Shown here: positions 11,866 through 58,855 of the stretch, piece after piece | Layout: each line of letters begins with the position of its first letter | How positions within the stretch are numbered: the first letter of the stretch is position 1 | Origin: Lobosporangium transversale | Lineage: Eukaryota | DNA: 58,855 bases | Reading direction: 5' to 3' | Assembly: GCF_002105155.1 (NCBI RefSeq) | Contig: NW_019028981.1 | Span: 1,674,001 to 1,732,855 of the forward strand | Made by a program: the position numbers and the translations under genes | Notes under the pieces: generated by a model | Databases searched by the model: none | Seen by the model: only the letters and a program-made list of their open reading frames with translations | Told to the model about the DNA's origin: nothing

Positions 11866-14800
11866 CTAGCCATCTATCTCCATCTGTTCTACTTGCTGCT
11901 GTTGCTTTCTGGATTTTTGAGACGCTTTCCAAGCTTGAATTTTCTCACGAAGCTCAATATCTATCAAATAAATTCAAAAATGGGTTTAAAAAGTTTGCAT
12001 TGCTTTCTTTTACTGCACAAAGCATCGACCAAGCATTATCAATAATTAGATGATAGACTTACTGTCAACAACATCACTGATTTTGAGTGGCATGCGGTTA
12101 AATGGATCTGTCGAGTCAGATAATAGATGGGATTTGATGGTGCTTCTGTCGATAGAGATATTGGAAGTAGGTAATAAAACAGGATCTTCCATGAGAGTAA
12201 ACAGTAGCGGATCTAAAGTTGTTTCATCAGTAAAGGAAGAGAATAATTAGATCGAGTGCATACTTCTTCAGGCCACTAATATCAGAGCTAGATTCTCATG
12301 TATACCCAAAAATTCCTCTGGAATCTCGCCCAATTCCTCTTCGTCCTCTGCTCCTTGCTGTCTCATATCTTCGACCTTTTGGACAAGCCTTGTTAACTGG
12401 GCAATTTCGTCAGGACTTTTAAGATTACGTCCTTCTAAAATACGGCTAGCCTTATGGAAGATGCTTGCTTTGTAGCTTCGGTCATCCCGAGCTAGAGCTG
12501 CGATAAACTTTGGACAGTCCAAATGTAAATAGACTGATATGATATCTGAAAGAAGAGTACGGGGTTGGAAGCGGTATTCTTCTTGGTTTTTAACCTAAAT
12601 CAAATACAAAGGCCCCACCCAGATAAAAGTAACGGATTAATGTCTCCAATAGCGCTTGAGTACATAAATACAAAAAAAAAAAAAGAAAAAAACTATTGTT
12701 GGACATGGGCCCTAACAAACCTTTAGAGTCGACATCTTCTCTCCGACCAATATTACAAGGTTGTAGTCAAGCATGGTGGCTAATCGATCGACAATCTCAG
12801 CAGTCAAGAAGGGCTGCTTAATAACCTCAGTCAAGTACGCTAGCATATTCACTGTCTCATTGCCCAAGGCGATATAGGATGATGCTTGACGCTGCGCTGT
12901 CCTAAGGACTCCCTCTTTCTCTTGCCGATATTGTGGCGTCTGTGCAGCCCATCCGGCCTTGTCATCCATCTCTGCCTCAATACCATGAATTTCCACAAGT
13001 TTGGTTAAGCCTTCATCCAAGAGATACGTGGTATCGTTTATCAACAAATTGACAAAGCGCACGAATGTTTCTGATTTCCTATAGTCCATAATAAAACAGC
13101 AATGAGCTGAGCTTGAGTGGATCGAAAATGTTTTTTAAACATTTACCCCTATTACCTAGGTATGCATGAAAACTTTCGAAATAAAAGTTGCGATTGCTTA
13201 CTGGCTTTCTGCCTTAACCATGTCACGATGGATAGGATTCTTCCACACAAACTTGAGAATCTGAGAAATATTGTATCGGATGTTGAACTTATCGTAGAAT
13301 TGGGAGCTACGGCCTGTATTCTCAACCTCAACATAAAAGTTCATAATCGCGGGAATCAGACACTGGAGAGCCATAGGATGCGTATTGAGCTTCATACCGA
13401 GAGTATCATCATTTCTTTGGCCCCGATAAGGAAGAGTCATGTAAAACAAGATCTATCAAAAGAAAAAGGGGCCATAAGTATAGGTAAATAGTGCTTAATT
13501 GATTAGTTACTTTATGGAACTTAAGAATTTTACCTCAGCGAACTTGGCTTTCAGATATGGGTTTTTGATATATCCTGGAGTAATCAAGAACACCATGGTG
13601 AATGTAATCAATTCATCCAATGTGGAGGATCCAACAGTCTCATGAGAGTGGCGGAGGACAAAGAGAAAAAATTCCACAATATCTTCAATGATGTACTCTG
13701 GTAGATTCGCAAAGTCTTCAGACGGTTTCTCAGGTAATGGTAGTTGGATAGTACTTTGGGGATAGGTGTGAGTAGGGTCAACCATCCTAAGTAACCAGGC
13801 CATAACAAGGTTGTAGAACTGGAAAGAGTGTGCCAGAATGATAGGGTCCATGATCTGAGATTCTAAAGACAGTCGGAATGTAATCATCTTCTCCAGCTGA
13901 ATTTCATAGCGTTTGATCAATAGTCCATTTTCTACAGAAAGTTGACCAGAAGTCTCTTGTTCTTTGAGGCGGTCATACTGATCTCTAATCTCGTAGAAAT
14001 CCTTCATGAAGCGCTTATAGTCGATATACATCTTTGATAAACCGATGTGGTGAAAGCCTAATGTAAGGAAAAATATATCTGAGATGAAGTTGATAGCAGA
14101 AGTTGATGTTCCAGATGCATAACTATCCGTCATTTCCTTTGATGCACATATTCTTGTTTCTTTGGTAATGTCAATTTTGGATTTTCCCTTAAAGAATTCA
14201 TGCGAAATCTTGTCGATCTTAGTATGGCCACTGTCTAGGAAGGGATCACAGAACTGCATCAAAACTTCACTGATATTATAGATGAAGCCATCGCCCGAGA
14301 CCGTTGCTCGATCAACCTGCATTTGTGCTCGACGTTCATTCTTGTTTAAAATGGAATAGAAATAATCCAACATCTTCCCTTTTGATTCCGGTCCTGATCG
14401 AATGAGACTATTCACAATTTGGAATAGTGAACTTTGGATGCCACGCACAGTCCCACGGATCGAAGTAAAGGCGCCATTTGAATCTGCCTTATTCCTCTTC
14501 AAACCTGAACCAAACAGTTCCGCAACCGATGGCTGCAATATAAATTGCAGTGGATATACAATCAAAAGGATGGTTAGGCGCAGGTCATAAAATAATCAGG
14601 CAGGACAACCAATTCAAAAGAATGCAAACCATACCTCATCAGAGCAAAATCCTGAGATCTTAAAGAAAGGGCCTAGAGCAGATACTATTTCTATCTGACG
14701 TGCTGTAGCATTAGGTGGATTCCAAATGGCAATCGATGGGAGGGTCGAAGCAATAGCTGGAATCTCAATAAGAGTTAAAAGAGCTCTAAAAGGGGTTCTC

Positions 14801-25100: not shown

Positions 25101-25391
25101 TAGTCACAGTCTACTGGGAAAGAATAAAGCATCACCACCTGAGAGCATCAGGACTATGCAGCTGGGCAGCACAAACGAAACAGAGGTGATTTCTTTGGAT
25201 CTGCCCAAAGACGACGACGAGCAGCTGACGTGAAAGCGATCATGGTAGAAGCAGATCACGGAATAGGAGAGTGATCGAGATTGACAGTGACAGGACGACT
25301 GGAAGAATATCGCTTTTATACAGTCCAACTTTAATTATGAGATGGATGTAACAGGTGATACGTTTCACAATTCATCCATGCCTCTGTCTTA

Positions 25392-27221
25392 ATGATGGCA
25401 TCTATTCCAGCATCGGAGTCATTACCGTCATCATCGTCGAACAGCCCTTCTAATGAGGTGCTGCAATTACCGGAGCTGCTGGAAAAAATAGCCACATATG
25501 TCTCGCACACCGACACCCTCCATTCAGCACTTGTTTGTAAGACTTGGGGCTCTGTTTTCACAGCTAACCTCTGGCGCAAATTGAATATGCCTCCAATTCA
25601 CAAGAGCAGCTTCATCAACGGCTTGTTACATCGGGGCCACCATGTTCGTTCACTTACACTTGTCGGTCAATTTGATCACATGTTGTTTTACAAGTCTTGT
25701 CCACAGTTAACTCTGCTTGACCTGACTCTAGCACAATCACTTAATGTGTTTGGACTCCACAATATGGCTCGCTGTCTGCCTAATCTCAAGATCTTAAGGC
25801 TCAATTGCTGCTATGGTCAAAGCTTGTCTTGGCTTGGCCCTTTGACACAACTCGAATGTCTCGAGGAGTTTGCCATGATTAATGACATGCCAGAGTATTC
25901 ACAGAGTGATGTGCCATCGATTTCTGAGCATGAACAATCTTTATATGTCCAGAGTTTAGATGAGGCCTCAAATTCAGTCAATACAGATGTTGATCCAGAT
26001 GAGATGCTTGAAGCTGATCAAGGATTTAGTTATGTAGCGATAGAGGAAGTGGAGCCAACAGATACGACAGAAGAATTGGATCTACAACCAGATTATTTGG
26101 GAGAATTCTTGATTGCTCGTGCCGCAACATTGACTAACTTGAGCCTCGAAGGATTGGACCTGCTTGGATTTAAGCTCTTCAAAACTTATAGTCAGACAAA
26201 TAGTGTAGTAAAGGATGCTACAACACCTACCAGCTCGCCTTGCGCCACAGAGTCTTCTATAATACCAACCATATCCATCAAGCGCCTGAATCTTTCGAAA
26301 ATAGGTGTTTATCATACGAGTTCTGTCATAGAGCCACTTTTAATGCAGTGCCATGGCCTTGAGACATTAGACATATCAGGGAACTTCGAGAAACCATGGG
26401 ACATGTTCCAATGGTCGTTACTTCCTCGATATTGTTTGAAGCTTACCTCTTTAAATTTGGGTCAGTTATCATCTATCGACAATGATCAACTGGTACAAGT
26501 CGTGCGATGTTGTCCGGGGTTCCGCTCGTTGCTGGCACCACAATCCAACCTTCATAGCAAAGTTCTGGACGCCATTGTAGATAGATGGTTAGAGACATTA
26601 CATGATTTAGGTGGAGCTCGAGAGTTCACTGTTCAGAAGACTGGATTCCTAGAACTCGACATTTCCTGGTGTTCAGAGATTAAGCAAGAGTCAGTTCAGC
26701 GGCTATTGAAGCATGTATCGACGCTGAAGAGCTTTAGATGTTCATGGTGTCAACAAATTGATCTAAGCTTATTTCAATTAGAATGGAGTTGTCTGGGTCT
26801 TATTGAGTTGGAAGCACAGGGACTTGACAAGCCAACTACAACTGATGACGAATTCAGCTGCTCACCTGAAGTTCACATGTTTAAACGGATATCCCAATTC
26901 AGCTTTCTGAGGCACCTCGCAATTGGGTCCGATGAGGTGATGGCATCTATCACAAATGGGTTTGAGTTGTTGGGACTGCGAAAGGCTGGCAACAACGATG
27001 AGCAGACGGCGAAGCCCTGCTTGAATCAACTTCAATATCTGTCTATTATTGGGCATGAAGAGAGCCCATTAGGAATAAGTGAAATGTCAGTCGTGGCCAG
27101 TTCGTTTCCTCAGCTGCGTCATTTTCACTTTGGGCTTGGGCTAGTATCACCAGAGATGCAAACTTGGTTGGCTGGACAACGACCTGATGTTCATCAGGAG
27201 GAGCAGCGCATCTACTATTGA
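25392..27221 (+). CDS. F-box/LRR (RNI-like) protein, intronless, 609 aa
   Basis: F-box-like LQLPELLEKIATYV...ALVCKTW; LRRs such as CPQLTLLDLT, CHGLETLDIS and LELDISWCSEI; WSCLGLIELE motif. Confidence 0.88.
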   Translation: MMASIPASESLPSSSSNSPSNEVLQLPELLEKIATYVSHTDTLHSALVCKTWGSVFTANLWRKLNMPPIHKSSFINGLLHRGHHVRSLTLVGQFDHMLFYKSCPQLTLLDLTLAQSLNVFGLHNMARCLPNLKILRLNCCYGQSLSWLGPLTQLECLEEFAMINDMPEYSQSDVPSISEHEQSLYVQSLDEASNSVNTDVDPDEMLEADQGFSYVAIEEVEPTDTTEELDLQPDYLGEFLIARAATLTNLSLEGLDLLGFKLFKTYSQTNSVVKDATTPTSSPCATESSIIPTISIKRLNLSKIGVYHTSSVIEPLLMQCHGLETLDISGNFEKPWDMFQWSLLPRYCLKLTSLNLGQLSSIDNDQLVQVVRCCPGFRSLLAPQSNLHSKVLDAIVDRWLETLHDLGGAREFTVQKTGFLELDISWCSEIKQESVQRLLKHVSTLKSFRCSWCQQIDLSLFQLEWSCLGLIELEAQGLDKPTTTDDEFSCSPEVHMFKRISQFSFLRHLAIGSDEVMASITNGFELLGLRKAGNNDEQTAKPCLNQLQYLSIIGHEESPLGISEMSVVASSFPQLRHFHFGLGLVSPEMQTWLAGQRPDVHQEEQRIYY

Positions 27222-41335: not shown

Positions 41336-41815
41336 TTAACGGTCCTCAGCCCATTCATTCTCCTTCTTAATCTGTGCTTCTTCCTCAGGCGTAAAATCGT
41401 TAACGATGTTGAAGGCCTTCCGGATTTGCTCGGGAGTTTTGCCTTTAATGATGTTAGCAACGGTTTTGCAACCAACATCAAGCAATGGCTTAATATCCAA
41501 GTAATTGGCAGCCAAAATTATCTCGAACAACATCTCCTGATCGACTTGCATAAACTTCATGTCCCACTCTTCGATATCGTTTGAACGCTTGCGGGGGTCG
41601 TCTGTCTCATCTGAAACTTGAATAGGATCGTTACGATGATGCTCGCAGTACTCGATGACTTTAGTTAACACTGCAGCCGTGACGTTAGGGAGAGGGATGG
41701 GTGCGTCGGACTCCCCGACATCCTCAAGCATGTTCTTGATCAAGATCGAACGTTCGGCCACCTCCTTGTCGATTTTGAACTCCTGGCCGTCAGAGGAAAC
41801 GAGAATCACAGACAT
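41336..41815 (-). CDS. SKP1: SCF adaptor Skp1, intronless, 159 aa
   Basis: [67 protein letters not shown]. Confidence 0.97.
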
Positions 41816-42027
41816 GATGGCAATTTTAAATATTTTGAAGAAAGAGATGAATATGCAATTTTTTATTTCGTGTGGCCACATGTCCAAAAAAAAAAAAAAA
41901 AAAAAAAAACACAGCCACATTTTATCTAAATCCGCCTTGTACAGCACCAAAAACTGTTCAGGTCATGTGTCACGTCTACAGAACAAAAAGTGATGGCCAG
42001 TGCATGGCATGGCACTTATTACGACCT

Positions 42028-45735: not shown

Positions 45736-48700
45736 ATGGCATCTTCCATGAGTAACCTTCTCGCTATTGATTTTAAACGGACAGAGCCACTCTCAATGAC
45801 AAAGAGTCTTAGCGACTATATCTCCACATCCTATGCGGAGCATCCAGATATCTACCAGGATGACTTTCGTGTCCTTGATGAGCTTAGAGCTGATATCGTC
45901 AACCTTGAGCCTCACCTTAATGCTCTCAACCGCCTGTTAAAGTGGGTCTTATGCTGCTCGATTCATCTACATCTTTAATTATAATCAACAACAGCTTAGC
46001 ATTGACGCTATTTTTGCTTTACTATGTCGCAATAGGTACCATGCACAGCTTGTGTTTATCAGTTCCAAATTTCCTATTGATGTGAGTTATAAACTATTAA
46101 TCCTCTTGATGAGTGGCCACATTTTCAATTATAGGTCAATTGACCTGCTTATCAATAAATTATCGTGATGTTTTTAGACAGGTGTTGAATTCTCCTGGGC
46201 ACTCGTCAACAGTACCGACAAAAAGATGTGTAAGGAGAAGCCGGTTCTTTACAAAAAAGTAAATGTATTGCGTTCAGTAGACGATACAAAGTAGTGCCTA
46301 GAATCTTACAGTTCTTGTCCAATGCACCTATCTGGAATTACAGACTCCTTCAGAAACATGTATTACGAACGAGCATGCATTTGCTTCAACATCGGGGCTA
46401 TGTATAGTCAGCTCGGCAACAATGAGAATAGAAGCACAGTCGAAGGACTAAAGCGTGCTTGTTCCTATTTCCAAGTACGATACGGGGTTCCCGTCGAGAA
46501 ATTTCGAGCGTTACTATCTGTTGATCTTCCTGTCAATACAACGATAACGTATTTATTTTTTTATTTTTTATTTTTATTCTTTTTTAGAATTCCGCAGGAA
46601 CATTTCAACATTTACGGGATACGATTATTCCAGAACTGAGGATTGCTCCAACTGTCGATATCTCCACAGCCTCCCTGACAGTTTATATCCAACTTATGCT
46701 TGCACAGGCACAAGAATGTTTCTGGCAGAAAGGCGCATTAGGTAAAACCTTTGGTCCAGTTGATGTTCTTCTAGTTGACCGCCAATCACCGGCCCATTAA
46801 ACTGTGGAGGCCTTTGCTACAACTTATATATATGTTTCATGAAGAATAGATCAGATTAAGGATGGGCTAATCGCTAAACTAGCAGCCAAAGTTGCTGATT
46901 ACTATACAGCAGCAAACGAAGGGGCAACCCATTCAAGTGTTTCCTCCCTATTCACTACACCATGGACAAGCCAAATGCAGGCCAAGGCTTTTCATTTTAA
47001 CGCTGTATCTCAGTACAGAAAGTCATGCGAATGCATATCTCAAAATAAATATGGCGAGGAAATTGCGCGACTTCAGATTGCTGAACGGCTTGTTAGCTCA
47101 GGACTCGATCTACAGAGGAACCTCAGGGAAACGGTCGTAAGCGATCTACGTTCGTTGCAATCCGCCATTCATCGTAACCTCTCGAGGGCAGAGAAAGATA
47201 ATGACATCATTTATTTGGAACCTATTCCTGCAGAGACCGCACTGGCGTCAATTGGGCGTGTGGATATGAGCAAGGCAACTATCATTCCAGAAATATCAAA
47301 CCCTGTTCCACTAATGAATGAGCATAATATATTGTTGGGTGTCCCATTGTTCTCGAGACTGGTTCCGTTTGCAGTCCATCAAGCAGCGAGTGTTTATACA
47401 GAGCGCAAGGAGAGGCTCGTGAAAGAAGACATTGGAGGAAAGTTTGATGAATTGACAGGTATTTTTTATAGGTATGTGAAGCGAAGATGCTAGACCTAGT
47501 CCTCATATTTGACAAGTTGGAGCAAAAGATAGATCTAATTGGTATATTCATTACTCAATTTTAGTCAAATGCAAGCGCTAAATCTGCCCGGAGCTCTTCA
47601 AGCACTTGAGCAGCCCATCGGATTGCCGCCCTCTCTTCTGTCCCATATTGATGAAATACATGCTGAAGGGGGTACCCGAACGCTAAATGAAATGGTTCAG
47701 ACTGTTCGGACTCTTTCACATCAAAATGCAGCCATATTAGATGAAATCTTTGGAGCATTACAGCAAGAAGCTGATGAAGACGAAGCAATGAGGCGAAAGT
47801 TCCAAGGACGTTGGAACCGCCCTACATCAGCGTCTCTGACAGTTAACCTCGTGGAACAGGGGAAGAGGTACAGAGACACCCTTGAAACTGCTAAAAAAAG
47901 CGATCAGATTGTTAGAAATAAAATGGAGGCGCTAATGACAACATGGGGGCGCTCATTGGAGCTGCTCGGCAGTGGTAGGGTGAGTATGCTTTTTTCCCGA
48001 CGTTTTCATTGTGAGCCAATCATCTGATTTATATTCACTTACACTTGCTATGGTTGCTGATGCATCACAATAGGTTGAAGTGGAACGCGCTGTGCCTAAT
48101 ACAATTAATGCGCCGGGCTCTTCAGATCCCGAAATTGTATACGACTTGAAGATGTTGTTAGAAGAGGCTGATCAGATGATCAAGGCGCGAAGGATTAAAT
48201 TAGATGAGGTCAAGAGGATTGCGGATGAGGACGATATAGGCCCATCTTTAGTGGCTATTACTAATAAGTTAACAGCCAACTCATCTGCAGTCAAAATTGA
48301 ACCTGCTCATTTTGAAGCGCATTTTCAGGAGCAACTCAAAAAGTACGACGGATATAAGGCGCTAGTTAAAGAGGAAACAGCTGCACAAGAGGATCTTTTG
48401 ATGGCTATCCAGGTATTAAACAATTGGCTATACATCATCGACAATCTCCAGAGATGGCGCTTTATTATATCTACTTATATCACATCTTTATTTTATTTTT
48501 ATTCTTATTTTTATTTTTATTTTGAATCATTAGGAAATAAATAAGGCTTTTGTCGCATCCAGAAAAAGTAGCCCAGTTGTACATCAACGAGAGAAAGCTC
48601 TTCAAAATCTGGAAGCAGCATATCAAAAGTATAAGGCAATACTGCTGAACCTCAAGGAAGGAATGCAGGTATTGATAATCATTATGTTGTATAGTATGTT

Positions 48701-49452
48701 CTCTCTACAAATTAATCTGCACTCAGTAATCAAGCTAAATTTCATTCCGTTGGCTATAGTTCCATCGCGATTTTGAAAAGATTTTAGTACGCCTGCGCGA
48801 TAACTGCCGCGATTATCTTCTCGCCCGCGAGATGGAAGCCAAAGATTATTTGAGGTAAACAAGAGCTTCTATTTTACACAAACGGTAACTTCAATCAAAG
48901 TAGGAGCAAGGTTTTTTTCGTTGTCCTGAATTGCCATTTCCTGTCAATGATAGTGAGGTGACCGCTGGAATATCATCCATCAATTTAAATCGCTCACAGC
49001 CGCAAAGCCCTGTGCACGGTTCTCCTTATGATGTAGCCAGCGCGCCTCCTCAATCCTATGATTTTCAACCTGGGTCCGGGAAGTGGAGTCCAAGTCTTGG
49101 TGTACATTTTGGTGGTCAAGCACCCACTTTACCCCCGGAAGTAACGCAGGGGCAAATCGGGTCGTTTAGTCATAACAGCGCTACATTCAGTCCCTATGAA
49201 GATGCACCGGTGGGTCCGCCATCTCAACCGCAGCCAAATTTTGCACAACATCTTCGGCAACAGTTTCAGCAAAAGCAGCCATCTTCCTTTCAAGGTACAT
49301 CATCACCACAACAACGGCAACAACAGCAGCAACAGCAACAGCAACAAGCTCCGCCGTCTTATCAATCCTTGCCCGGAAATAACAATGCTCCTACACCAGG
49401 CGTATGGGACCCTAGTAAAGGCTTGTTTTTCGGAGGAAAGCCCAAGAATTAA
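45736..49452 (+). CDS. RIM20: BRO1/V-domain protein Rim20/PalA (ALIX family)
   Basis: [11 protein letters not shown]...[73 protein letters not shown]; Pro/Gln-rich tail ending [12 protein letters not shown]. Confidence 0.9.
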
Positions 49453-49512
49453 AGTCAACATATAAATAAAAATAAAATAAAGAAAACCCCTCAATGTTTT
49501 TAATAGAAACCA

Positions 49513-50180
49513 TTACTCGTCGCTCAATATTTGTTGTCTAAGCCATGTGGTTTCTTCGACCACCCAGTCGTTGTTACTATGTGGTCCCTCTATAGCACTA
49601 ACTTCTTGAAATCCTTGATTTATCTTGAGGCTGGCCATTGAGTTGAGGTATTTGCCTGTATTAACATGCTGCAGCCAAAATACATCTTTCCATTGCAGAA
49701 AAGGCGAGAGTGGTTTCTTGATATCGGGCTCTGGTCGAGTGACGATCCAATCATTGTTACTGTCGTGGTATCGGTATCCAGTAACCTCGTTATGATCTTG
49801 GTGATTAAGAGATCGATGATTGTGCGAATGGAGATAGAGTGTAGTCGAAGGTGTAGTCTTGTAGATCATGGTATGATACTGGCAAAGCGATGGGGGATCG
49901 ATAAATTTCATTTTGTCTGCCTCGTCGATATCGTCAGGAGCAGTGATCTGAACAGAAGGCATACCATACGACACTTCAGATAATGCCAGACGAGATAGTG
50001 AATGTGAGCCACATGCGCATGGGTATGACATATCTTGCTCTATCTTGATCCATTTGACATTATGATCTAAATGATCTGAAGCTTGACGACATCTTAAGCA
50101 AAGATATGGTGGGGCCATACCATCTTGTGGAGGGTAGCAATCACTAATAGAAACAACATGGGAACAAAAGAGGGATAAGT

Positions 50181-50212
<32 letters not shown>

Positions 50213-52049
50213 TAGAAAGAGTAATAATTATTACTATCATTATTTCGGAAATAAAAAGTATTACCTGCAAATTGCAACCCATTCACCAGCACTCGCAGTA
50301 TAAAGGCATCTGTGAACGATGTTCGTTCCACCAGCCCGCTCGTGCCGCTCACAATGTGTAGCAAAGCGAAACGCGCTATTCTCACCACATCCACATCGCG
50401 TAGTTTCAAATCCAATCGAGGCATACAATCGCAGATAACTGTGGCCCTGATGGGCTTCTTTGATAAAACAAGACTCGCAAAATACTCTTCCAGGATCTGT
50501 CTGACATGTCTTTATAGTTGCATTAAACATTTTTTTTTTCTTAGTTAGTACCGATAGTGCTGTCAAAAGTTATAAAAAAAAGCCAGAACATACAACTAAT
50601 AAATTTTACATACCTTGCATTGGTAGTAGTGCATACCTTCCTTTATATCCGTAACACAAAGCACAGTCTGTCGATTATGATCGTCTTTGCAATCTGTACT
50701 ATTAATATTGGCTTGTGTAGGTGGCTGTCTTAGGATACTTGGGTCACCACAGTGACAGTATAGACCTTCATTATGCTTATTGATCCCTTCCTCAATCTCA
50801 TGGCCAATGTGGTCTTCAGATTTAAAGCAACGAGTACAAATCCATATGTCTGATGTTGCAGTAGGCAAGCTAGACTGATGTTCATCCTCTGAGTCATCCG
50901 TTGGGATCGAATCCAGCATTAAAGAAGGATTTGTGATGTGCTCGCTATCAACAACATGACAAGTTCGACAGCGCCACATACTCTCATGACGCTCAAAGAG
51001 ATAATTGCAATGACTGAGACTTGGAACAGGTCGGAATTCCTGTGGTAAATGATAGTTGCAGTCAAACGCAGTCTTAAACATGGTTGGATCACCACAATCG
51101 CATGATACATGATAAACTGCCTCATCTTGTAGCTCTTCCTCATTACTTTCATTATTCTCACTTTCTGGTAATTCTTGCTCCAGTGTCTCATCCGATGGGT
51201 AACAGGGCGAGTCTACAGTGTTCATGGTTATACCTATTTCAGCTTGTTCGCCTTCGGCAGGGACCTCGTGGGTTGACTCTTCAGCAGCGATCTCACGAGT
51301 CGACTCTTCAGCGGGGATCCCGCGAGTCAACTCAGAACTGGTCCTTGGTTTGACATCGGGCTGCTGGAAGACACCCATCCTCCAACGATGTTTCACGCAT
51401 CGTGAGTTGTGAAAGCATCGCCCACATAATACCACCATACTATTGAAACTGCAGTCTTTACAGTGATAGATATCTTCGCCAGGCTTGAATATATGTCCGC
51501 ATCGTTGTGATTCTAATGATGCTTTGGCTACTTCTGATACAGCTTTAGGTGGAAGTGAGGGTGAAGTCTGATCATCGGTGGTAGAGTGAACCAGAGCTGG
51601 AGAAGAGGGGGAAGACGATGATGAAGCAGCCTCTTGCTCAGGTGGTAAAGGTTTCCATGGTGATTTAGAAGGTGAAGGTAGCCTGATAGACCTTGGAAGA
51701 TATTCGCTCTCGAGAACACCAGGGCTATGGTATGCACAACGCAAATCGAATTTCCAGAACTTTCCATCACAGCAGCTGCAACTGGAGCCGTCTCTTGCAA
51801 GTTGAGCTATAAAATCATGGCCAAAGTGGTTGTGCTAAGGATATTGTACCACATATCGTAGAAAGAACCATAGATCAGAGCGTGTATTCAATCATTACGG
51901 AAAACTAAGCATAGGCTGTAAACAGGATCTAGGACTTACAGAGCGGAAACATCGAACGCAGAGTACCGCATCATCGTTGGCATTGGTAGCGCACGACTAT
52001 CACAAAGGGTTGAATAATGTCAATCAATATCATTCATCCATTCATTCAT

Positions 52050-52082
<33 letters not shown>

Positions 52083-55000
52083 TGCTTACCTTGCATCGAT
52101 ACACTTTTTCACCCGCCTTAAATTTGATCTGACATGGTTTGCCCTTTGTATGGCCTGAATAAGATTTTTGACTTTCCGCAGAGTGCAATGAACAGTGAAG
52201 CATCCGTCTCATTTTTAACCTGGAAGGATCGCTACAGACGCAGACAGATGTCCCCCAAGAGCACTGCAAGTACATCGTATGATCAGCATGATCCGAAGCT
52301 TGTTATTTCATCATTCAAATCGAATACATGTTAATAACAGCATCTTTGTTTTTTGAAGCATGTTTATCGAGTCATCAAAAAGTTAAGAGATATAAACGGC
52401 CCTACCTCGGAAACATCTCATGCAAAGAACATCAGCTGGGCAGGTCTTACAAATAACATAAGTTTCACCATATGGGACAATATGTCGACATGGGGCTCCT
52501 TGCGCTCGTGGTAGATACTCTGGCATTTCTATTTTAGTATTCCTAGTAGAAAACCAATATGAAATAATCCAGACACGGTCACCATATTTGACCTTCCAAT
52601 CTTTACGGGTGCGGATTATATCCTTTGCAGGGAGGATAATCCATTTTGAAGCAGTATACGTCTTGCTATCACAGGCAACTATACCAAGCAATTTGCCACG
52701 AAGCAAGCACATACCGTAAGTCGATTTTCAAGATGGAAAACAAAAACAAGAAAGTGAAATAGATAGCTGAGATATTGGTTTTCCTTAAAACATACCTACA
52801 TTCTGGCGAGATGATCCTTCGTGGGAATATAGCCAATTCCAGATCCAGGCATATTGCAATGTATTGGCATGTAGCATGTGAATTGTCCATCCGAACTGGA
52901 CGACTGTGCTATTGGCGTGCTCTTTTTGATCGCTTGACATTGAACCATCTACGTTGCCGGTACTGCTGGAAGACTCTATGCCAGCACTACCCAACTCTTT
53001 ATCTTGCCTAACAAACATACAAATAAACAAATATAAAAAACAGGAGAGAAATGGTAAAACTTCTACAAATTCATCATATAGAAGTCAGTATCATGACAAA
53101 GAAGACTTGAAGGCCCATAACTTACGAGTCTTTGTCATTGTCTTCCAATTTGGACCGCCTCTTAGCCATCATAATCTCAGCGATCTGTTGTTCAAGCTCT
53201 GTCGGAGCATGCTCATTCTGCTGTAGTGATTGTGCTGTCGCGCTTCTCGATATGCTAGTGCTAGTACTATTAATGTCCACATTTCCATTTACTGATGCTA
53301 AAGCCTGAATGCTGGTGCTCTTCCCGTTCAGTGTATCAGTTAAAACATCTGCGCTGCTTGCACTACCTGCCCCAGCAATATTACCAATGCTTCCATTCAT
53401 AAGGACGAGAGACTGACGTGTTGAAGAGGAGATAGAAGAACATCGCTTCAAATGAGATGAAAGAGTGACTGGAGATGTGGGTAAAGCTGAGTTTGGAGCA
53501 GTATTAGCAACCGATTGTAGGAAGATGACAGATTCAGCTTGTTGCATCTCATCCAAGTTTTCTAGAATAGAAAGGGCTTCCGCGCTAGGTATGCACGTCT
53601 CAAGATAGTTTCTGCGAACTTGATCAACGGCTTGTAAAAAGTCAGAATAGTCCTTGGGAGTGACACAGGAGGAAAAATGTATACAAGACAGTAAGTGTAA
53701 GCGTTGCATGCCATTTATAAATGGTTACGTTGGTGTGGTTGATATCTTCGAGAATGTGAATAGGATTGTTAATACCTTAATATCGGGTGAAGATCTCAGC
53801 GTTAGAGGTGACACTGTAGCTGAAGCTAAACTACTGCTATTTCGCTGATTGCCTAATAGACGGTTCTTGAATACTTGCCAATGTTCATCTAAAGTAACCA
53901 TATGATGGTTCTGCAGTGCCGAAGCATTTGCGTTATAATATTCCAGATAAAGCCCTCCTGTGGGAACCATCATCTCTAAAGCCGATGTTGCTCCAACAAG
54001 GTTTGCATCCGTTGCAGCTGCAGACTTTCCTGAAGCATGGTCTGTGATAGTGGTTTTGAGACAATGAGTCCGAAAATCACCAAGCAACTTGGGTAGGTAA
54101 TACTCGAAACCAAGATAATAGCGCCTTTCGATTTCTTCTAATGATCTAGATTGAGCATCGTGATGGAGCATTGCAAGAGTGTGCCAAGGTAATGGGATGG
54201 GTTGTCGGTCCAGATGCTCGTTCATGATACGGTGGTATGTATGTGCTCCATTGTATAATGCACGTTCACGAATGGCATCGCGTGCGGCTTGCTGCAGGTC
54301 GGACAGATTTAGTGGTGCTGAACATCCATTTAACTGAGTCAAGTATGTCTGGAGCTTGGCATAGAGTACAGCACCTAAATTAATATAATATTGAAATGGT
54401 TACAAGGATCTTCATCATAAACTCGAATATGATTTTTACTCTTTTGGATAACTCAAGGACATACCACTTGTAGCCTTCTGGCTCTCTGTTAAAGTGCTTT
54501 GATTATCCGGCCGCTGTTTGCTACGGCCCGTGAGCTCATGAAACCAGGAGCTGTCAATATGAGCCTCATTACTTTTTTTTGTGTCAGTCACTGTCAAATC
54601 CTTTAGATCTCGCATGAGGACAGCCTCGATTGATTGTTCGTTCATTTTAGATCGCCTTTTACGAATACTTCCTCCAGCCCTGTTATTAATCTTCGATGAC
54701 GCTGGTGAGGGACAACACTTGATGGACCTAAAAAACTGCTCGAGCACTGCAACTTGCGCTGCAATATCTTCGCTTTCAATAGACATTACGCCGGTGGACT
54801 TTCTAGCATCGCTGATATACATCTCGAGTGTAGCAGCTCCACGAGCATGTCCATGATCGCTCTTGGCTTTTGAATTTGATATTGCTCTATTAACAGGATC
54901 GCTCCAACGCCAATTCAGGCTTGGCAAGTCGAAAGGCGGGTAGTGACGTTGCGTCGTCTGCAATGTGAGTAACGACCGCGCTAGTCGGGCCAAATCCCCT

Positions 55001-55677
55001 TCGGTATCGTAGATCGTGGGCGATACAATGTTCAACTGGTTTGAGAAGAGGGCAAGTATAGGTTCAAGAATCCCATGGAGTGGAAATGAGAAAGCGCTGT
55101 TCTCCGTCGTACTATCATATAATGTATTAGGACTGATGCTGTTATCATGTCGGTATATTACGTAGAGTGTATGAACCGGGTGACTAGATGATACAGAATC
55201 CATTGTACTTGTTGGTGATGATAGCCAAGCCCAGATGCCACCACCGAGAAGCCTAATATCTGTTGTTGATGTTGTCGATGTTGTCTCCGTGTCATTGGTC
55301 TGTTCCTGTTCATTATTTGTATCGCTACTGTATGAATTTCTGATAACTGACGCAGATGCTGCTGCTGTTGCTGCTGCATCACATAGAGCATCCTGAATTG
55401 ATCTGTGATACGAAACTATTTAAATACATATACACATCAGAGTTAGTGTTATTGAGTCTTTGCATTACTACATTTAGTTTTATGCTTCATAAATATGAGA
55501 AAAAAGTCTGTTATTGGTGTGCCTACAGAATGACACAACAGTCAGAGGTTCAGCTAGGTTCTCGAGAATTGCTCGTGTAGCCTCAGGAATATCAAAGACC
55601 CACGGAGAAGAACTGGGTGAGGGAGTAGAAGGCACAGGAGAGCGTCGAATTTTAGCCAGTTGGAAGAATAGAGCCAT
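49513..55677 (-). CDS. Multidomain protein: GBP-like pseudo-GTPase + helical domain + MIR beta-trefoil with six inserted UBR-box zinc fingers (about 1691 aa)
   Basis: Eleven GT-AG exons: 55677-55527, 55415-54465, 54374-53776, 53652-53126, 53007-52796, 52678-52406, 52298-52090, 51996-51940, 51834-50614, 50509-50265, 50143-49513. Total 5076 nt and every junction phase is consistent. Confidence 0.82.
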
Positions 55678-55990
55678 TGCTGTAGAACACAAGGAGTTTT
55701 AGTGAATCGGTAAAGACGACGATACTTGGTGAAGGTGCGGTTGCAGTAAGATAAGAGTGGACATTCGCACGCGCACACGCACGCAAGTGATCCGATTCAA
55801 TGGGCTGAGAGAAAAAGAGAAGAGAGAAAAGTTAAGAGCAGGGGAATTCAAAAGACAAACTAGCGTTCAAGCGTTCGAGTGAAAGATGATGGAGGAGAGA
55901 ATGAGAGAATGTCCATGGCTTTTGAGATGTGATCTTTGTACAACCCCTGTGCCCTTTTGTGGAAGGGCATGGTACATGTATAAATATATA

Positions 55991-56246
55991 CAGTGGAATC
56001 TCGATAATTGTACACTTTTGTACAAATTTCAAATTTGATATATTTCTAGGCCATTGGTTGGCTAAGAGCCTTACTCTTTTAAAAAAAAGTATTCTAAAAA
56101 ACCCACACTCAACTGGAGTAGAGGAATCAGCAGAGGATTTTTAGAATAGTTTTTCATGAATTGTGGGCTTCTTAGCCAATCAATAACCGAGAAATATAGC
56201 AAATTCGAAAATTGTACAAAAGTGTACAATTATCGAGATTCCACTG
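55991..56246. mobile_element. Tc1/mariner(pogo)-type MITE, 256 bp, TA target-site duplication
   Basis: Perfect 35-bp terminal inverted repeat CAGTGGAATCTCGATAATTGTACACTTTTGTACAA, imperfect pairing to about 110 bp, TA on both flanks. Confidence 0.92.
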
Positions 56247-56886
56247 TATAAAATATTCATGTATTGCTCAAATTATTCGACAGTTTAAACATGCATGTTT
56301 TGTTAGACTACCAGCCCAGTGGTCATTATCAAATCATTTTGCAAGAAAGAAACTTTGTCCTTTTTTACTTGTCTCCAATCCCGCCCTGCGTCCTGTCTCC
56401 TCTGGACATTGACAGTGGTCCATGTGAAACGGAGTTGTTCTCGGGGACTATTTTTTAATTTGGTATGTCCGTTAGGCACAGATCGGGGAGGTTCAGTAAC
56501 AAAAGAATGTACATGATTCGACCGGCTCTGAGACATGTCAACAATAAGGAATAAATTTTAAAATAAAGAATCAATTCATTCGATGGGACATTTATTACCT
56601 TTCCATGTATTGCCCCACCACTTCAAGAATGCGACGGCGACTGACACAGCTTGCAGCAACCTACTCTAGCATAGATCCTGGTATCGCCTGGACAGAATAT
56701 AATTTTAGGAACCCAGGCAACGTTGTATGTGCCGTAAGAATCGCGGTGGATTACCAATACTTCAGGTGGTGTTGGTGGAGGAAACTTAACCACTCTGATT
56801 TATTACATGTACATGTACTATCGCGGACGACACATTATCTAATGCCCACTGTATAGTGCACGGGCCTTGTACCATTCATTATATTG

Positions 56887-56919
<33 letters not shown>

Positions 56920-57262
56920 CTGCGTGTTTGTTAATGCGAATTGCTTGAGACCTTGCCTCTGGACTCCAGACCTCTGCTACCCAATGCAACTACAATAAGG
57001 CTGGCTTCGGGCAACGTTCGATTGGTCTTGATGTCCTTTTCATTTTTCCTAATGCCTTGAGCTGCACTTGAACCACATACCTTTTTTTTTTTGGATGTAT
57101 TATGTTATTTCTACGCCCTATCCGTATCTATACTATTGCTGTTGAGGCAAGCATGGCAATAATATACGTAGTGCAGATAAACTTCATATCTTCATCTCCC
57201 TACTGTTGTGCTTTCATTTGAATATATTTTGCACTATCATATTAAAACTGCATAGAATCGGA

Positions 57263-58795
57263 CTATTCAACAATCTTAATTTCGGGCCGTAATATTTTCA
57301 ACTCCTGTTTTAGCTGGCTGCTTTTTCGTACTGCGCTGATTACATTTCCTGACAAGGTCCTCAACTGAGGACATTCTTTAACCATCCACATAACTTCCTC
57401 TGAGCTCATTCTAATTGGCATATTCCCAAGATCTAACTCATACAAGCGCTTTAGCGATGCTAACCACCGTAGTCCACTCTCTAATGTAAGTTCCAATAGG
57501 TGATTATCTTCTGCAGAAAGGACAGGGCTTGCACGCAAGGCCAGCACGCGGATCCGGCCTAGCATAGACAGTTGCTGAAAGACCAAAGATTGCATTTCTT
57601 CATGCCATGCATTTTGGGAATGACAGAGGTCAGCAATAACTAACTCTAGCTCCTCAATACTCAGGCACGCCCACGACGTTAGTATAGCGCCTGTCTTAGT
57701 CGCATAGAATGATCTCGCAATATCAATCGCCTCCACATTAGCCGCGCGAAATATTTTCAGTCTAGGCATGGAAGCCAACATCCGTTGGATCATCTTACTG
57801 CCTAGATCTTTGCAGTCCATTAAGTCCAACTCCAACATCTTGTCCCTCTGATCAGCTATTAATTGAAGCGCCGATTGTGTGCCAAATGGTGTCGATCTTG
57901 CTCCGAGAGCCTCTAATGTAGGTAACATTGCAATGACTCTAGCCATATCCGCATCTTCTATATGGGAGTTTCCAATATCCAGTCGGTTTAGGCTCACAGG
58001 GACCGCTAAACTCCCTGAAAGCCACGACTCTGTCAACAGCTTAGTACCACGCCGCCAGTTGATTGACTTGAGTTTAGGAGCCTTTCTGACCAATTCAAGT
58101 TGGCATTGGGGTGGAAAATCATTCCAAATAAGGATCAAGGCTTCCAGGCTTACGAAAGTACTCATTGAAATGTCCTCAGGATCAACAGAGTCGGAGTACA
58201 AAGAGCGGTCAGTGACCTTGATACGATCCAATTCTAACCGCTTGACGGTCTTACATACTTTGTTGAAAAGATTCTTTGGAGGGTCCAATAGAGTCACTGG
58301 TCCAAGAGCTAGCTCGGCTAAGTGTGGGGCCATTCCAAGGATATGAAATAGGTGACGGCACCATAAATCTTGCGCCTCCTGGTCCTTTCGCATACGATTG
58401 GAGCGACAGCTAAACGAGGTTAGCGTCTCGATATTGTGTTGTGTAATCATCAGGATCTCAGGGCTGAGGATAGAGACGGAAATGCTAGTCAGCAGCATGA
58501 GAGGCTGTCTTGTCGAGAACGCTAAAGGCTCCAATAGAGAATTAGAGCCGACCTGATGAAAATGACGGATATGATGACGATTACGGAGCAGCAGCGTTGG
58601 TGTTGCCTGCTTTGGCGTAAAATTGCAAGGCTGATTTTGCAGTGCTAGTGTATGCCAGACTAAAGGCTCAAGAGCAATATGCCATGTCCTACAAACACGA
58701 AGGAATACAAGGAGTTGTGAGCGAGAGACATGACGACCCAAGGTTTTCACTATATTTGGAATAAGGAAAGGATTCTGAACTTCTTGGGCTTCCAT
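57263..58795 (-). CDS. F-box/LRR (RNI-like) protein, intronless
   Basis: NPFLIPNIVKTLGRHV...LRVCRTWH F-box-like; WACLSIEELEL; LELTLESGLRWLASLKRL; EVMWMVKECPQL. Likely start MEAQEV at 58795. Confidence 0.88.
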   Translation of the reverse strand: MEAQEVQNPFLIPNIVKTLGRHVSRSQLLVFLRVCRTWHIALEPLVWHTLALQNQPCNFTPKQATPTLLLRNRHHIRHFHQVGSNSLLEPLAFSTRQPLMLLTSISVSILSPEILMITQHNIETLTSFSCRSNRMRKDQEAQDLWCRHLFHILGMAPHLAELALGPVTLLDPPKNLFNKVCKTVKRLELDRIKVTDRSLYSDSVDPEDISMSTFVSLEALILIWNDFPPQCQLELVRKAPKLKSINWRRGTKLLTESWLSGSLAVPVSLNRLDIGNSHIEDADMARVIAMLPTLEALGARSTPFGTQSALQLIADQRDKMLELDLMDCKDLGSKMIQRMLASMPRLKIFRAANVEAIDIARSFYATKTGAILTSWACLSIEELELVIADLCHSQNAWHEEMQSLVFQQLSMLGRIRVLALRASPVLSAEDNHLLELTLESGLRWLASLKRLYELDLGNMPIRMSSEEVMWMVKECPQLRTLSGNVISAVRKSSQLKQELKILRPEIKIVE

Positions 58796-58855
58796 GCTTG
58801 AAATGTGAAAGAGAAAAAGAAATAAATAGAATTTAGCATGAAATGCCTTCACCAT

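What the first reader, a model, noticed from the sequence alone, without database searches (positions are those of the whole stretch)
54950..55677. The GBP-like domain has lost its P-loop and Walker B (pseudo-GTPase)
The scaffold follows GBP order: EATRAILENLAEPLTVVSF (cf. EALKILSAITQPxVVVAIVG), GGIWAW (cf. KGIWMW), HTLYVIY (cf. HTLVLLD) and ILALFSNQLNIVS. But GxxxxGKS reads FSYHRSIQDAL and DTEG reads YRHD. The long intact reading frame suggests a retained, catalytically dead fold acting as scaffold or decoy (inference).
Basis: partly seen in the sequence, partly recalled or inferred. Interest (0 to 1): 0.7.

Follow-up and report, generated by a model that had tools for sequence, protein, structure and literature searches.

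The report
Dead GBP GTPase heading zinc-finger scaffold
A soil-fungus gene begins with a guanylate-binding-protein-like domain that lacks all four GTP-binding motifs in every relative where they can be read, so it is likely an enzyme turned structural cap on a rod carrying six zinc fingers that would serve as a binding scaffold.

Summary
Confirmed and extended. The stretch starts an 11-exon gene whose product is identical to a 1691-aa Lobosporangium transversale protein. A template-free model of its N-terminus matches human GBP1 best (Foldseek E 3e-12; Z 19.2, residues 1-621). A family profile finds GBP5 first in the PDB (E 6e-4). Pfam sees no GBP. All four motifs are lost in register: GLYRTGKS reads SYHRSIQD, T75 reads G, DTEG reads YRHD, RD reads SD. 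None of 17 Mortierellaceae rows keeps the P-loop Gly or Lys. A spliced RNA contig joins exons 1 and 2 directly, so the main transcript has no micro-exon. Conservation is inverted: dead G domain 31%, helical stalk 55%; intact GBPs 55% and 25%. Behind lie six UBR zinc fingers between MIR-like segments, with no RING or HECT. Best reading: a nucleotide-independent scaffold whose G domain is a structural cap; a decoy role is less likely. No assay was possible. Pseudo-GBPs are known (Arabidopsis GBPL1); the loss of every motif and this fusion were not found in print.

The parts
49513..55677 (-). Whole gene, 11 exons (55677-55527, 55415-54465, 54374-53776, 53652-53126, 53007-52796, 52678-52406, 52298-52090, 51996-51940, 51834-50614, 50509-50265, 50143-49513), CDS 5076 nt, 1691 aa
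54319..55677 (-). Pseudo-GTPase (GBP large-G) domain, residues 1-386, over exons 1-3
   Evidence: Model range 1-386 aligns to hGBP1 G domain 2b8w 7-308, Z 17.9, rmsd 3.7, 246 aligned; hhalign 89.5% vs reversed 0.5%
55416..55526 (-). Intron 1 (111 nt, GT-AG), just before the degenerate P-loop; no micro-exon in the main transcript
   Evidence: Joint 55527>55415 with 255 letters on each side and nothing between; interior bin 55436-55506 has depth 0; no GK dipeptide in any of its three frames
55390..55413 (-). G1/P-loop equivalent S52-D59 (SYHRSIQD vs GLYRTGKS): G45>S, R48 kept, G50>I, K51>Q, S52>D
   Evidence: Gapless alignment to GBP5/GBP2/GBP1; family tallies
55225..55251 (-). G2 equivalent L106-W114 (LLGGGIWAW vs SHTKGIWMW): T75>G; the structural G and W are kept in 20 of 20 rows
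55144..55155 (-). G3/Walker B equivalent Y138-D141 (YRHD vs DTEG)
   Evidence: End of model strand 132-139; HMMER register; Asp at the D97 position in 0 of 20 rows
54997..55008 (-). Chance DTEG (187-190) at the start of a helix; not the G3 motif
   Evidence: Model helix 186-200; 1 of 34 family rows
54898..54903 (-). G4 equivalent S222-D223 (WRWSD vs WTLRD): R183>S, D184 kept here but not across the family
   Evidence: R in 2 of 21, D in 6 of 21 rows; register
53494..54318 (-). GBP-type helical middle domain (stalk), residues 387-620; the more conserved half of the GBP-derived part
   Evidence: Model 1-621 aligns to hGBP1 7-486; hhalign 85% vs reversed 0.4%; 75 of 228 columns at least 85% conserved
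52902..53493 (-). Low-complexity linker 621-778 in place of the GBP effector helices, with one conserved helix (717-733)
   Evidence: pLDDT under 50 except helix 719-732; helix motif matched in 21 of 42 rows examined, many of them fragments that lack the region
52539..52901 (-). Highly conserved beta-rich segment 779-860; possibly the first five strands of a MIR beta-trefoil (weakly supported)
   Evidence: 68-88% identity across orthologs; Pfam Ins145_P3_rec E 5.4e-4, below cut-off, in one ortholog; best non-self match of the C-terminal MIR repeat, score 22 vs 10.5 next, but 148 of 2000 shuffles reach the pair score; no MIR hit in the PDB
49969..52496 (-). Six tandem UBR-box zinc fingers, residues about 875-1540 (box 3 split by an acidic insert)
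   Evidence: Pfam zf-UBR E 1.2e-58, 7 stretches; six CxxC/CxC pairs; UBR1/UBR2/PRT6 boxes in the PDB
49516..49866 (-). C-terminal MIR segment, residues 1575-1691 (shorter than a whole trefoil)
   Evidence: Pfam MIR E 8.6e-6; PMT MIR and SDF2 structures E 1.7e-4 and 2.9e-4 over 84-95 residues

Best explanation
The gene encodes a predicted GBP-fold domain that lacks all four GTP-binding motifs and is likely a nucleotide-free structural cap on a conserved helical stalk, which would act as a binding scaffold for the six UBR zinc fingers behind it. Shown: the sequence, the splice, the motif loss in every relative where the motif can be read, the domain order and the inverted conservation. Predicted: GBP G domain plus middle domain (residues 1-620). 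Inferred: (1) no GTP binding or hydrolysis (class i pseudoGTPase), because K51, G50 and S52 are replaced (Q, I, D), and the model starts helix 1 at residue 55, where a capping-type residue (S/D/N in 15 of 17 rows) would close the phosphate nest; (2) with no nucleotide cycle the rod stays in one conformation and selection has moved from the G domain to the stalk, which is the likely partner or self-assembly surface; (3) the UBR array and MIR segments bind proteins or peptides, and since no RING or HECT domain is found the protein would work as an adaptor with a ligase in trans rather than as an E3 itself.
For: Fold: Foldseek ranks 1-11 are all GBP1/2/5, top E 3.3e-12; VIA wide GBP1 Z 18.6, rmsd 5.5, 398 aligned, first unrelated row Z 8.5; model made from 34 family rows, no GBP rows, no templates, pTM 0.62. 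Sequence: (GBP5 E 5.8e-4); family HMM hits 44 of 79 intact GBPs at E<1e-3 and 0 of 79 reversed. Motifs: G50 0 of 17, K51 0 of 17, S52 0 of 17 (acidic in 14), D97 0 of 20, G100 0 of 20; intact control D[TS]EG 79 of 79, WxxRD 79 of 79, G2 73 of 79 (G1 was used to pick these rows). K51A or R48A alone abolishes GBP2 activity, and K51A crystals grown in GDP/Mg showed no nucleotide (PMC11846989 passages). Retention: three apparent N-terminal losses or truncations are split gene models with adjacent locus tags. Shift of selection: mean pairwise identity 31% G domain / 55% stalk in the family, 55% / 25% in intact GBPs; tree length 13.4 vs 6.9 on the same 13 rows. The helical part of plant GBPL3 binds partners without the GTPase domain (PMC9629626 passages). 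No RING or HECT by Pfam; no CaaX and no membrane-spanning stretch.
Against: No biochemical test. The arginine finger position is R in 10 of 17 rows, G45 is G in 7 of 17, T75 is S or T in 11 of 19, and an acidic residue is kept at the G100 position in 16 of 20, so a remodelled ligand site is not excluded. The G3 register differs between methods by about three residues (hhalign vs HMMER); neither gives DxxG. No partner is identified. No UBR box keeps the full F148/D150/D153 set of UBR1; only box 3 keeps D150 and D153 (pocket residues from PMC8346999 passages), so classical N-degron reading is doubtful for five boxes. The intact-GBP control is a biased set (80 of the 120 listed relatives of one query), so its 55%/25% split may not hold for all GBPs. 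dN/dS could not be computed.
Confidence: 0.62

Rival explanations
1. The dead G domain is itself the working surface: it pairs with an active GBP- or Sey1-type GTPase and restrains or positions it, as GBPL1 does with GBPL3 and SMG8 with SMG9, or it baits microbial effectors that target GBPs.
For: Both precedents are in this superfamily (PMC12489281 passages; PMC5473137 passages). The domain is kept in all seven named genera where G1 can be read. R48 is kept in 10 of 17 rows. A decoy under an arms race would evolve fast, as seen.
Against: A fixed cellular partner should conserve a surface; only 33 of 357 G-domain columns reach 85% and they look mostly like core residues. No intact GBP from these fungi appeared in the searches, but neither was designed to find one.
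Confidence: 0.17
2. The G domain is a decaying leftover with no role of its own, kept only because it lies in frame and packs on the stalk.
For: Identity over residues 1-386 (23-36%) is about that of the low-complexity linker (22-46%); loops vary widely in length.
Against: Strand and helix cores keep 31-50% identity and invariant G110, W112, W219, F279; no true deletion of the domain was shown in the rows checked; the model is confident in the core (pLDDT 82-93 in most core blocks).
Confidence: 0.12
3. The domain still binds a nucleotide or another anion through a remodelled site (a class ii/iii pseudoGTPase or sensor).
For: Partial retention of R48, S/T at T75 and an acidic residue at position 141.
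Against: K51 and G50 are gone in 17 of 17 rows and S52 is acidic in 14 of 17; an Asp at the phosphate site is one reason given for SMG8 not binding nucleotide (PMC5473137 passage); the guanine Asp is kept in 6 of 21 rows only.
Confidence: 0.05
4. The domain is dead but descends from Sey1/RHD3, atlastin or SMG8 rather than from a GBP.
For: Atlas feature leads are mixed and under 0.9 for named families: Sey1/RHD3 0.87-0.89, GBP 0.86-0.87, Smg8_Smg9 0.87. Atlastin reaches Z 17.6.
Against: The PDB profile search lists GBP5, GBP2 and GBP1 and no atlastin, Sey1 or SMG8 at E up to 10; GBP Z 19.2 vs Sey1 13.8 and SMG8 11.7; the stalk aligns through hGBP1 residue 486, while atlastin ends near 440.
Confidence: 0.03
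5. A hidden micro-exon or other splice form restores the P-loop and the enzyme is active.
For: Intron 1 falls two codons before the P-loop; contigs drop rare variants and only one run was available.
Against: Direct joint and no cover inside the intron; no GK in any intron frame and no Walker A pattern in six frames of 49400-57000; the degenerate motif already fills the GBP spacing without a gap; G2, G3 and G4 are lost as well.
Confidence: 0.01

Closest known systems
Human GBP1/GBP2/GBP5 (Pfam GBP + GBP_C)
   Same: Predicted G domain plus helical middle domain in the same order (Z 17.9-19.2); structural landmarks kept.
   Different: G1-G4 lost; no effector helices 12/13 (the alignment ends at hGBP1 486), no CaaX; about 14% identity; fused to UBR and MIR segments; conservation inverted.
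Arabidopsis GBPL1, a GBP-family pseudo-GTPase (PMC12489281, passages)
   Same: GBP-family domain with defective motifs; role inferred to be non-catalytic.
   Different: GBPL1 is described as divergent in G2, G3 and G4, about 35% identical to active GBPs, confined to Brassicaceae, and acting on its active paralog GBPL3. Here G1 is gone too, divergence hides the domain from Pfam, the loss spans Mortierellaceae, and no active paralog is known.
SMG8 of the SMG8-SMG9 complex (PMC5473137, passages)
   Same: Dynamin-like G domain plus stalk that lacks G motifs and binds no nucleotide; acidic residue at the phosphate site.
   Different: Three-helix stalk, obligate partner SMG9; Z only 11.7; no Smg8_Smg9 Pfam hit.
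RNF112/neurolastin (PMC12012479, abstract and outline)
   Same: GBP/atlastin-like G and middle domains joined to a ubiquitin-system zinc finger.
   Different: RNF112 is an active GTPase with an N-terminal RING E3; here the GTPase is dead, the fingers are six C-terminal UBR boxes and no RING is found.
UBR-box N-recognins (UBR1/UBR2/PRT6)
   Same: UBR-box zinc ligands (Pfam E 1e-58). The UniRef name 'E3 ubiquitin-protein ligase' probably rests on this.
   Different: Six boxes in tandem, none with the full F148/D150/D153 set; no RING, HECT or F-box in the chain.
AAGAB/Irc6p class i pseudoGTPases (PMC12490416, introduction and passages)
   Same: G fold without motifs used as an interaction or structural module.
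   Different: Small-GTPase fold with conserved binding loops on the pseudo-domain itself; here the conserved surface is on the stalk.

Membership tests
GBP family (active large GTPases) | Large G domain fold followed by helical middle domain | tested here: met
   Predicted model
GBP family (active large GTPases) | Sequence homology to GBPs | tested here: met
   Profile level only. Pfam GBP and GBP_C give no hit
GBP family (active large GTPases) | G1 GxxRxGKS | tested here: not met
   SYHRSIQD; 0 of 17 rows keep G50 or K51
GBP family (active large GTPases) | G2 threonine (T75) | tested here: not met
   G108 in the window protein; T in 3, S in 8 of 19 rows
GBP family (active large GTPases) | G3 DTEG | tested here: not met
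   YRHD; D97 0 of 20, G100 0 of 20
GBP family (active large GTPases) | G4 RD | tested here: not met
   SD; WxxRD in 1 of 34 family rows vs 79 of 79 intact GBPs
GBP family (active large GTPases) | Effector helices 12/13 or coiled-coil tail, CaaX in some | tested here: not met
   Model disordered after about 620 except one helix; C-terminus QILSDE
GBP family (active large GTPases) | GTP hydrolysis and nucleotide-dependent dimerisation | not testable with these tools
   Needs assays
Class i pseudoGTPase | GTPase fold retained | tested here: met
   Predicted
Class i pseudoGTPase | G-motif residues absent | tested here: met
Class i pseudoGTPase | No nucleotide binding and no hydrolysis (definition in PMC12490416) | not testable with these tools
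   Inferred from K51A data in PMC11846989
GBPL1/SMG8-type regulatory pseudo-partner | Binds an active paralog through the G domain | not tested
UBR-box N-recognin E3 ligases | UBR-box zinc finger | tested here: met
   Six boxes
UBR-box N-recognin E3 ligases | Type-1 N-degron pocket F148/D150/D153 | tested here: not met
   No box has all three; box 3 has D150 and D153. D118/T120 were not tallied
UBR-box N-recognin E3 ligases | RING, HECT or F-box module in the chain | tested here: not met
   Pfam at E up to 10 lists only zf-UBR, MIR and one weak phage zinc-binding row
MIR beta-trefoil | Three MIR repeats folding as one trefoil | tested here: inconclusive
   C-terminal part hits MIR; completion by residues 779-860 is weakly supported; second model pLDDT 43, no trefoil match
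Sey1/RHD3, atlastin, SMG8 | Closer likeness than to GBPs | tested here: not met
   Listed with lower Z than GBPs and absent from the profile hits where GBPs appear

The most novel reading that the evidence does not exclude
Mortierellaceae carry a family-wide protein in which a GBP immune-type GTPase, fully switched off, became a rigid rod that presents six UBR fingers inserted into a split MIR trefoil: a nucleotide-independent sensor-adaptor that links proteins with exposed or foreign ends (for instance from intracellular bacteria, which these fungi are recalled to host) to ubiquitin ligases in trans.
Probability: 0.15. Interest if true: 0.82.

Novelty: new variant of a known kind. Interest (0 to 1): 0.58.

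Why it matters
It is a natural, family-wide experiment on what a GBP does without GTP: the motor is gone while the stalk has become the conserved part, which points at a stalk function that active GBPs obscure. It adds a GBP-derived pseudo-GTPase from fungi that Pfam does not see and that databases label only as an E3 ligase, and it joins a GBP-type rod to tandem UBR boxes, a combination not found in the literature searches. The prediction is cheap to test with standard nucleotide-binding assays.

Tried and rejected
No whole genome is held for the window, so paralogs, including an intact GBP, could not be sought in it. Single-sequence searches missed the GBP link; early profiles gave GBP only at E 0.13-1.6. 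A MAFFT alignment with one intact GBP misplaced G3 and was not used. The literal DTEG at 187-190 was rejected as G3. Apparent loss of the G domain in M. alpina and Mortierella sp. AM989 rows was rejected as split gene models; for P0016, P0019, P0020, P0021 and P0022 this was not checked. dN/dS: the one metagenome scan gave a single locus covering residues 764-906 only. Split-MIR idea: second model too poor, local profile tests weak, no MIR hit for the N half in the PDB. Complex prediction (G-domain homodimer; MIR halves) was not available, so there is no verdict on either. Only one sequencing run holds the gene and it is not on record as RNA; its spliced joints show that it is. Earlier scan notes: nothing found. 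Literature searches for a prior description listed none; the library lacks most subscription papers, and Huang 2021 and Huang 2019 were not held. The basal position of Actinomortierella is recalled; the passages read did not confirm it.
Full report
1. What is in the sequence. The minus strand has an ATG at 55677, exon 1 to 55527, a 111-nt GT-AG intron and exon 2 from 55415. One public run (X1) holds a 5298-nt contig with nine listed GT-AG joints and no mismatch in the eight pieces shown. With a tenth intron, inferred from the protein match, the 11 exons give 5076 nt and translate to a protein identical to P0006, XP_021885760.1 of Lobosporangium transversale, 1691 aa; CDS plus the two untranslated ends equals the contig length. 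The joint 55527>55415 has 255 letters on each side and nothing between, and the intron interior has no cover. No intron frame holds GK, and no Walker A pattern occurs in six frames of 49400-57000. Contigs drop rare variants, so this speaks for the main transcript only.

2. Is the domain GBP-like? Single sequences say nothing: no Pfam GBP hit in 17 of 17 members or 11 further rows, no PDB hit for exon 2. Relatives: 16 proteins from a word search, all named Mortierellaceae, and 29 from a full scan of 1.84 billion representatives; of 10 of these looked up, nine are named Mortierellaceae and one is unnamed; most of the rest were not named. A 24-row profile finds GBP5 first in the PDB (E 5.8e-4), then GBP2 and GBP1, with no atlastin or Sey1 at E up to 10. 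For a control I fetched intact GBPs and used 79 of the last 80 of 120 listed rows (one lacked G1; the first 40, close to the viral-bin query, were left out). Family against these: hhalign 97.7%, E 2e-12, reversed 0.3%; G domain alone 89.5%, stalk alone 85%; the family HMM hits 44 of 79 real and 0 of 79 reversed rows at E<1e-3 (tool version 94.8%). AlphaFold2 on P0003 with 34 family rows and no template gave pTM 0.62. Foldseek ranks GBP1/2/5 in places 1-11, top E 3.3e-12. VIA gives GBP1 Z 18.6 (rmsd 5.5, 398 aligned) in the wide search, with atlastins 15-16, Sey1 13.8, RNF112 13.2, SMG9 13 and the first unrelated chain 8.5. Model 1-386 matches the hGBP1 G domain (Z 17.9, rmsd 3.7) and 1-621 matches hGBP1 7-486. 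So the G and middle domains are present and the effector helices are not.

3. Motifs. hGBP1 numbers are counted along the sequence printed; roles of R48, K51, S52, T75 and E99 are from PMC11846989 (passages). G1: SYHRSIQD against GLYRTGKS, without a gap. Among 17 non-redundant rows that cover it, in seven named genera: G50 is V12/T3/I1/D1, K51 is Q11/R4/S1/W1, S52 is D11/E3/G1/N1/V1, R48 is R10/Q7. G2: T75 is G here, S or T in 11 of 19. G3: YRHD; D97 and G100 each 0 of 20. G4: SD; R 2 of 21, D 6 of 21. Intact controls keep G3 and G4 in 79 of 79 and G2 in 73 of 79. The model starts helix 1 at residue 55; in GBP1 it starts near G50-K51 (recalled). Position 54 is S, D or N in 15 of 17 rows, typical helix caps, so I infer that an extra helical turn has replaced the phosphate nest. 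A literal DTEG at 187-190 lies at a helix start and is private to this protein. The G3 register shifts by about three residues between methods; neither register gives DxxG.

4. Is it retained, and what is selected? Adjacent locus tags show that the G-domain exons exist where annotations seemed to lack them (BGX27_009761/009762, BGZ68_010222/010221; EDD11_008030/008031 is split further down). The Actinomortierella protein is a clear member (E 5e-104) and lacks the motifs too. But the dead domain is the least conserved folded part: identity to the window protein is 23-36% (31-50% in core elements), against 48-63% for the stalk, 68-88% for residues 779-860, 60-81% for UBR boxes 1-2 and 22-46% for the linker (11 rows). 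Mean pairwise identity is 31% / 55% (G domain / stalk) in the family and 55% / 25% in intact GBPs; tree length is 13.4 against 6.9. Selection appears to hold the fold of the G domain, not its site or much of its surface.

5. The rest of the chain. After a linker with one conserved helix come a conserved beta-rich segment (779-860), six UBR boxes and a C-terminal MIR segment. No box has the full F148/D150/D153 set described for UBR1 (PMC8346999 passages); box 3 keeps D150 and D153. No RING, HECT, CaaX or membrane segment was found. By eye the two beta-rich segments supply five and seven strands, one trefoil in sum, with the UBR array in a hairpin; tests gave weak support only and the second model was unusable. 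I put this at about even odds.

6. How it most likely works. Shown: motif loss, splice, domain order, conservation pattern. Predicted: the GBP fold. Inferred: no nucleotide binding (about 0.9); a fixed rod whose stalk is the binding or assembly surface and whose dead head stabilises it; zinc fingers and MIR segments as binding modules; ligase activity, if any, supplied in trans. Confidence in the whole chain of inference 0.62. Rivals: G-domain partner or decoy 0.17, vestige 0.12, remodelled ligand site 0.05, non-GBP ancestry 0.03, micro-exon 0.01.

7. Comparison with what is known. A GBP-family pseudo-GTPase exists: Arabidopsis GBPL1, divergent in G2-G4, Brassicaceae only, restraining GBPL3 (PMC12489281 passages; the original paper was not held). 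SMG8 is a dynamin-like G domain without motifs or nucleotide (PMC5473137 passages). RNF112 joins an active GBP-like GTPase to a RING (PMC12012479 abstract). Class i pseudoGTPases are defined in PMC12490416 (introduction and passages). The protein is GBP-derived but fails every catalytic membership test, and it fails the E3 tests for N-recognins. Six searches listed no description of it; two GBP papers searched for 'fung' had no occurrence. Whether these fungi keep an intact GBP is open.

8. Verdict. Real and correctly read; a new variant of a known kind. Interest 0.58: a specialist would not be surprised that a GBP can die, but the total, family-wide loss, the shift of conservation to the stalk and the fusion to six UBR boxes are unusual and directly testable.

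Noticed in passing
window 55987-56250: A 264-bp element with 81-nt inverted arms (91% complementary) about 115 bp upstream of the transcript contig's 5' end; other contigs of run X1 match it with loose ends, as expected for a multicopy MITE-like element in the promoter.
   Followed up: partly
window 52901-52539 and 49866-49516 (-): The most conserved parts of the protein are two beta-rich segments on either side of the UBR array; together they may form one MIR trefoil split by about 700 residues of zinc fingers.
   Followed up: partly
window about 53200-53150 (-), residues 717-733: A single conserved helix in the otherwise low-complexity linker, present from Lobosporangium to Actinomortierella; it may be a remnant of the GBP effector helices that docks on the stalk.
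   Followed up: partly
window 12271-14595, 25359-27218, 41339-41962, 46295-48541, 57263-58855: Several ubiquitin-system or trafficking genes lie in the window: Ufd2 core, an F-box gene, Skp1, a BRO1/ALIX gene next door and an F-box-like/LRR-like gene upstream (weak hits). Probably ordinary gene content; synteny was not checked.
   Followed up: no
L006:2207-5020 (+): A contig labelled as a giant-virus bin encodes an intact GBP with a long coiled-coil tail (PDB E 6e-51); about 40 close relatives are in metagenomes, and an Atlas cluster of GBP proteins is all viral. Used here only as a control.
   Followed up: partly
P0003/P0005 (KAF9913215.1, KAF9913214.1) and three other strains: Public annotations often split this gene in two or three pieces, which hides the architecture and mimics domain loss.
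   Followed up: yes
Atlas rows 1-3: Unnamed eukaryotic clusters (commonest Ascomycota, 350-400 aa, no Pfam) score 0.89-0.90 by features against residues 1-620; they could be further unannotated G-fold pseudo-enzymes, or chance.
   Followed up: no
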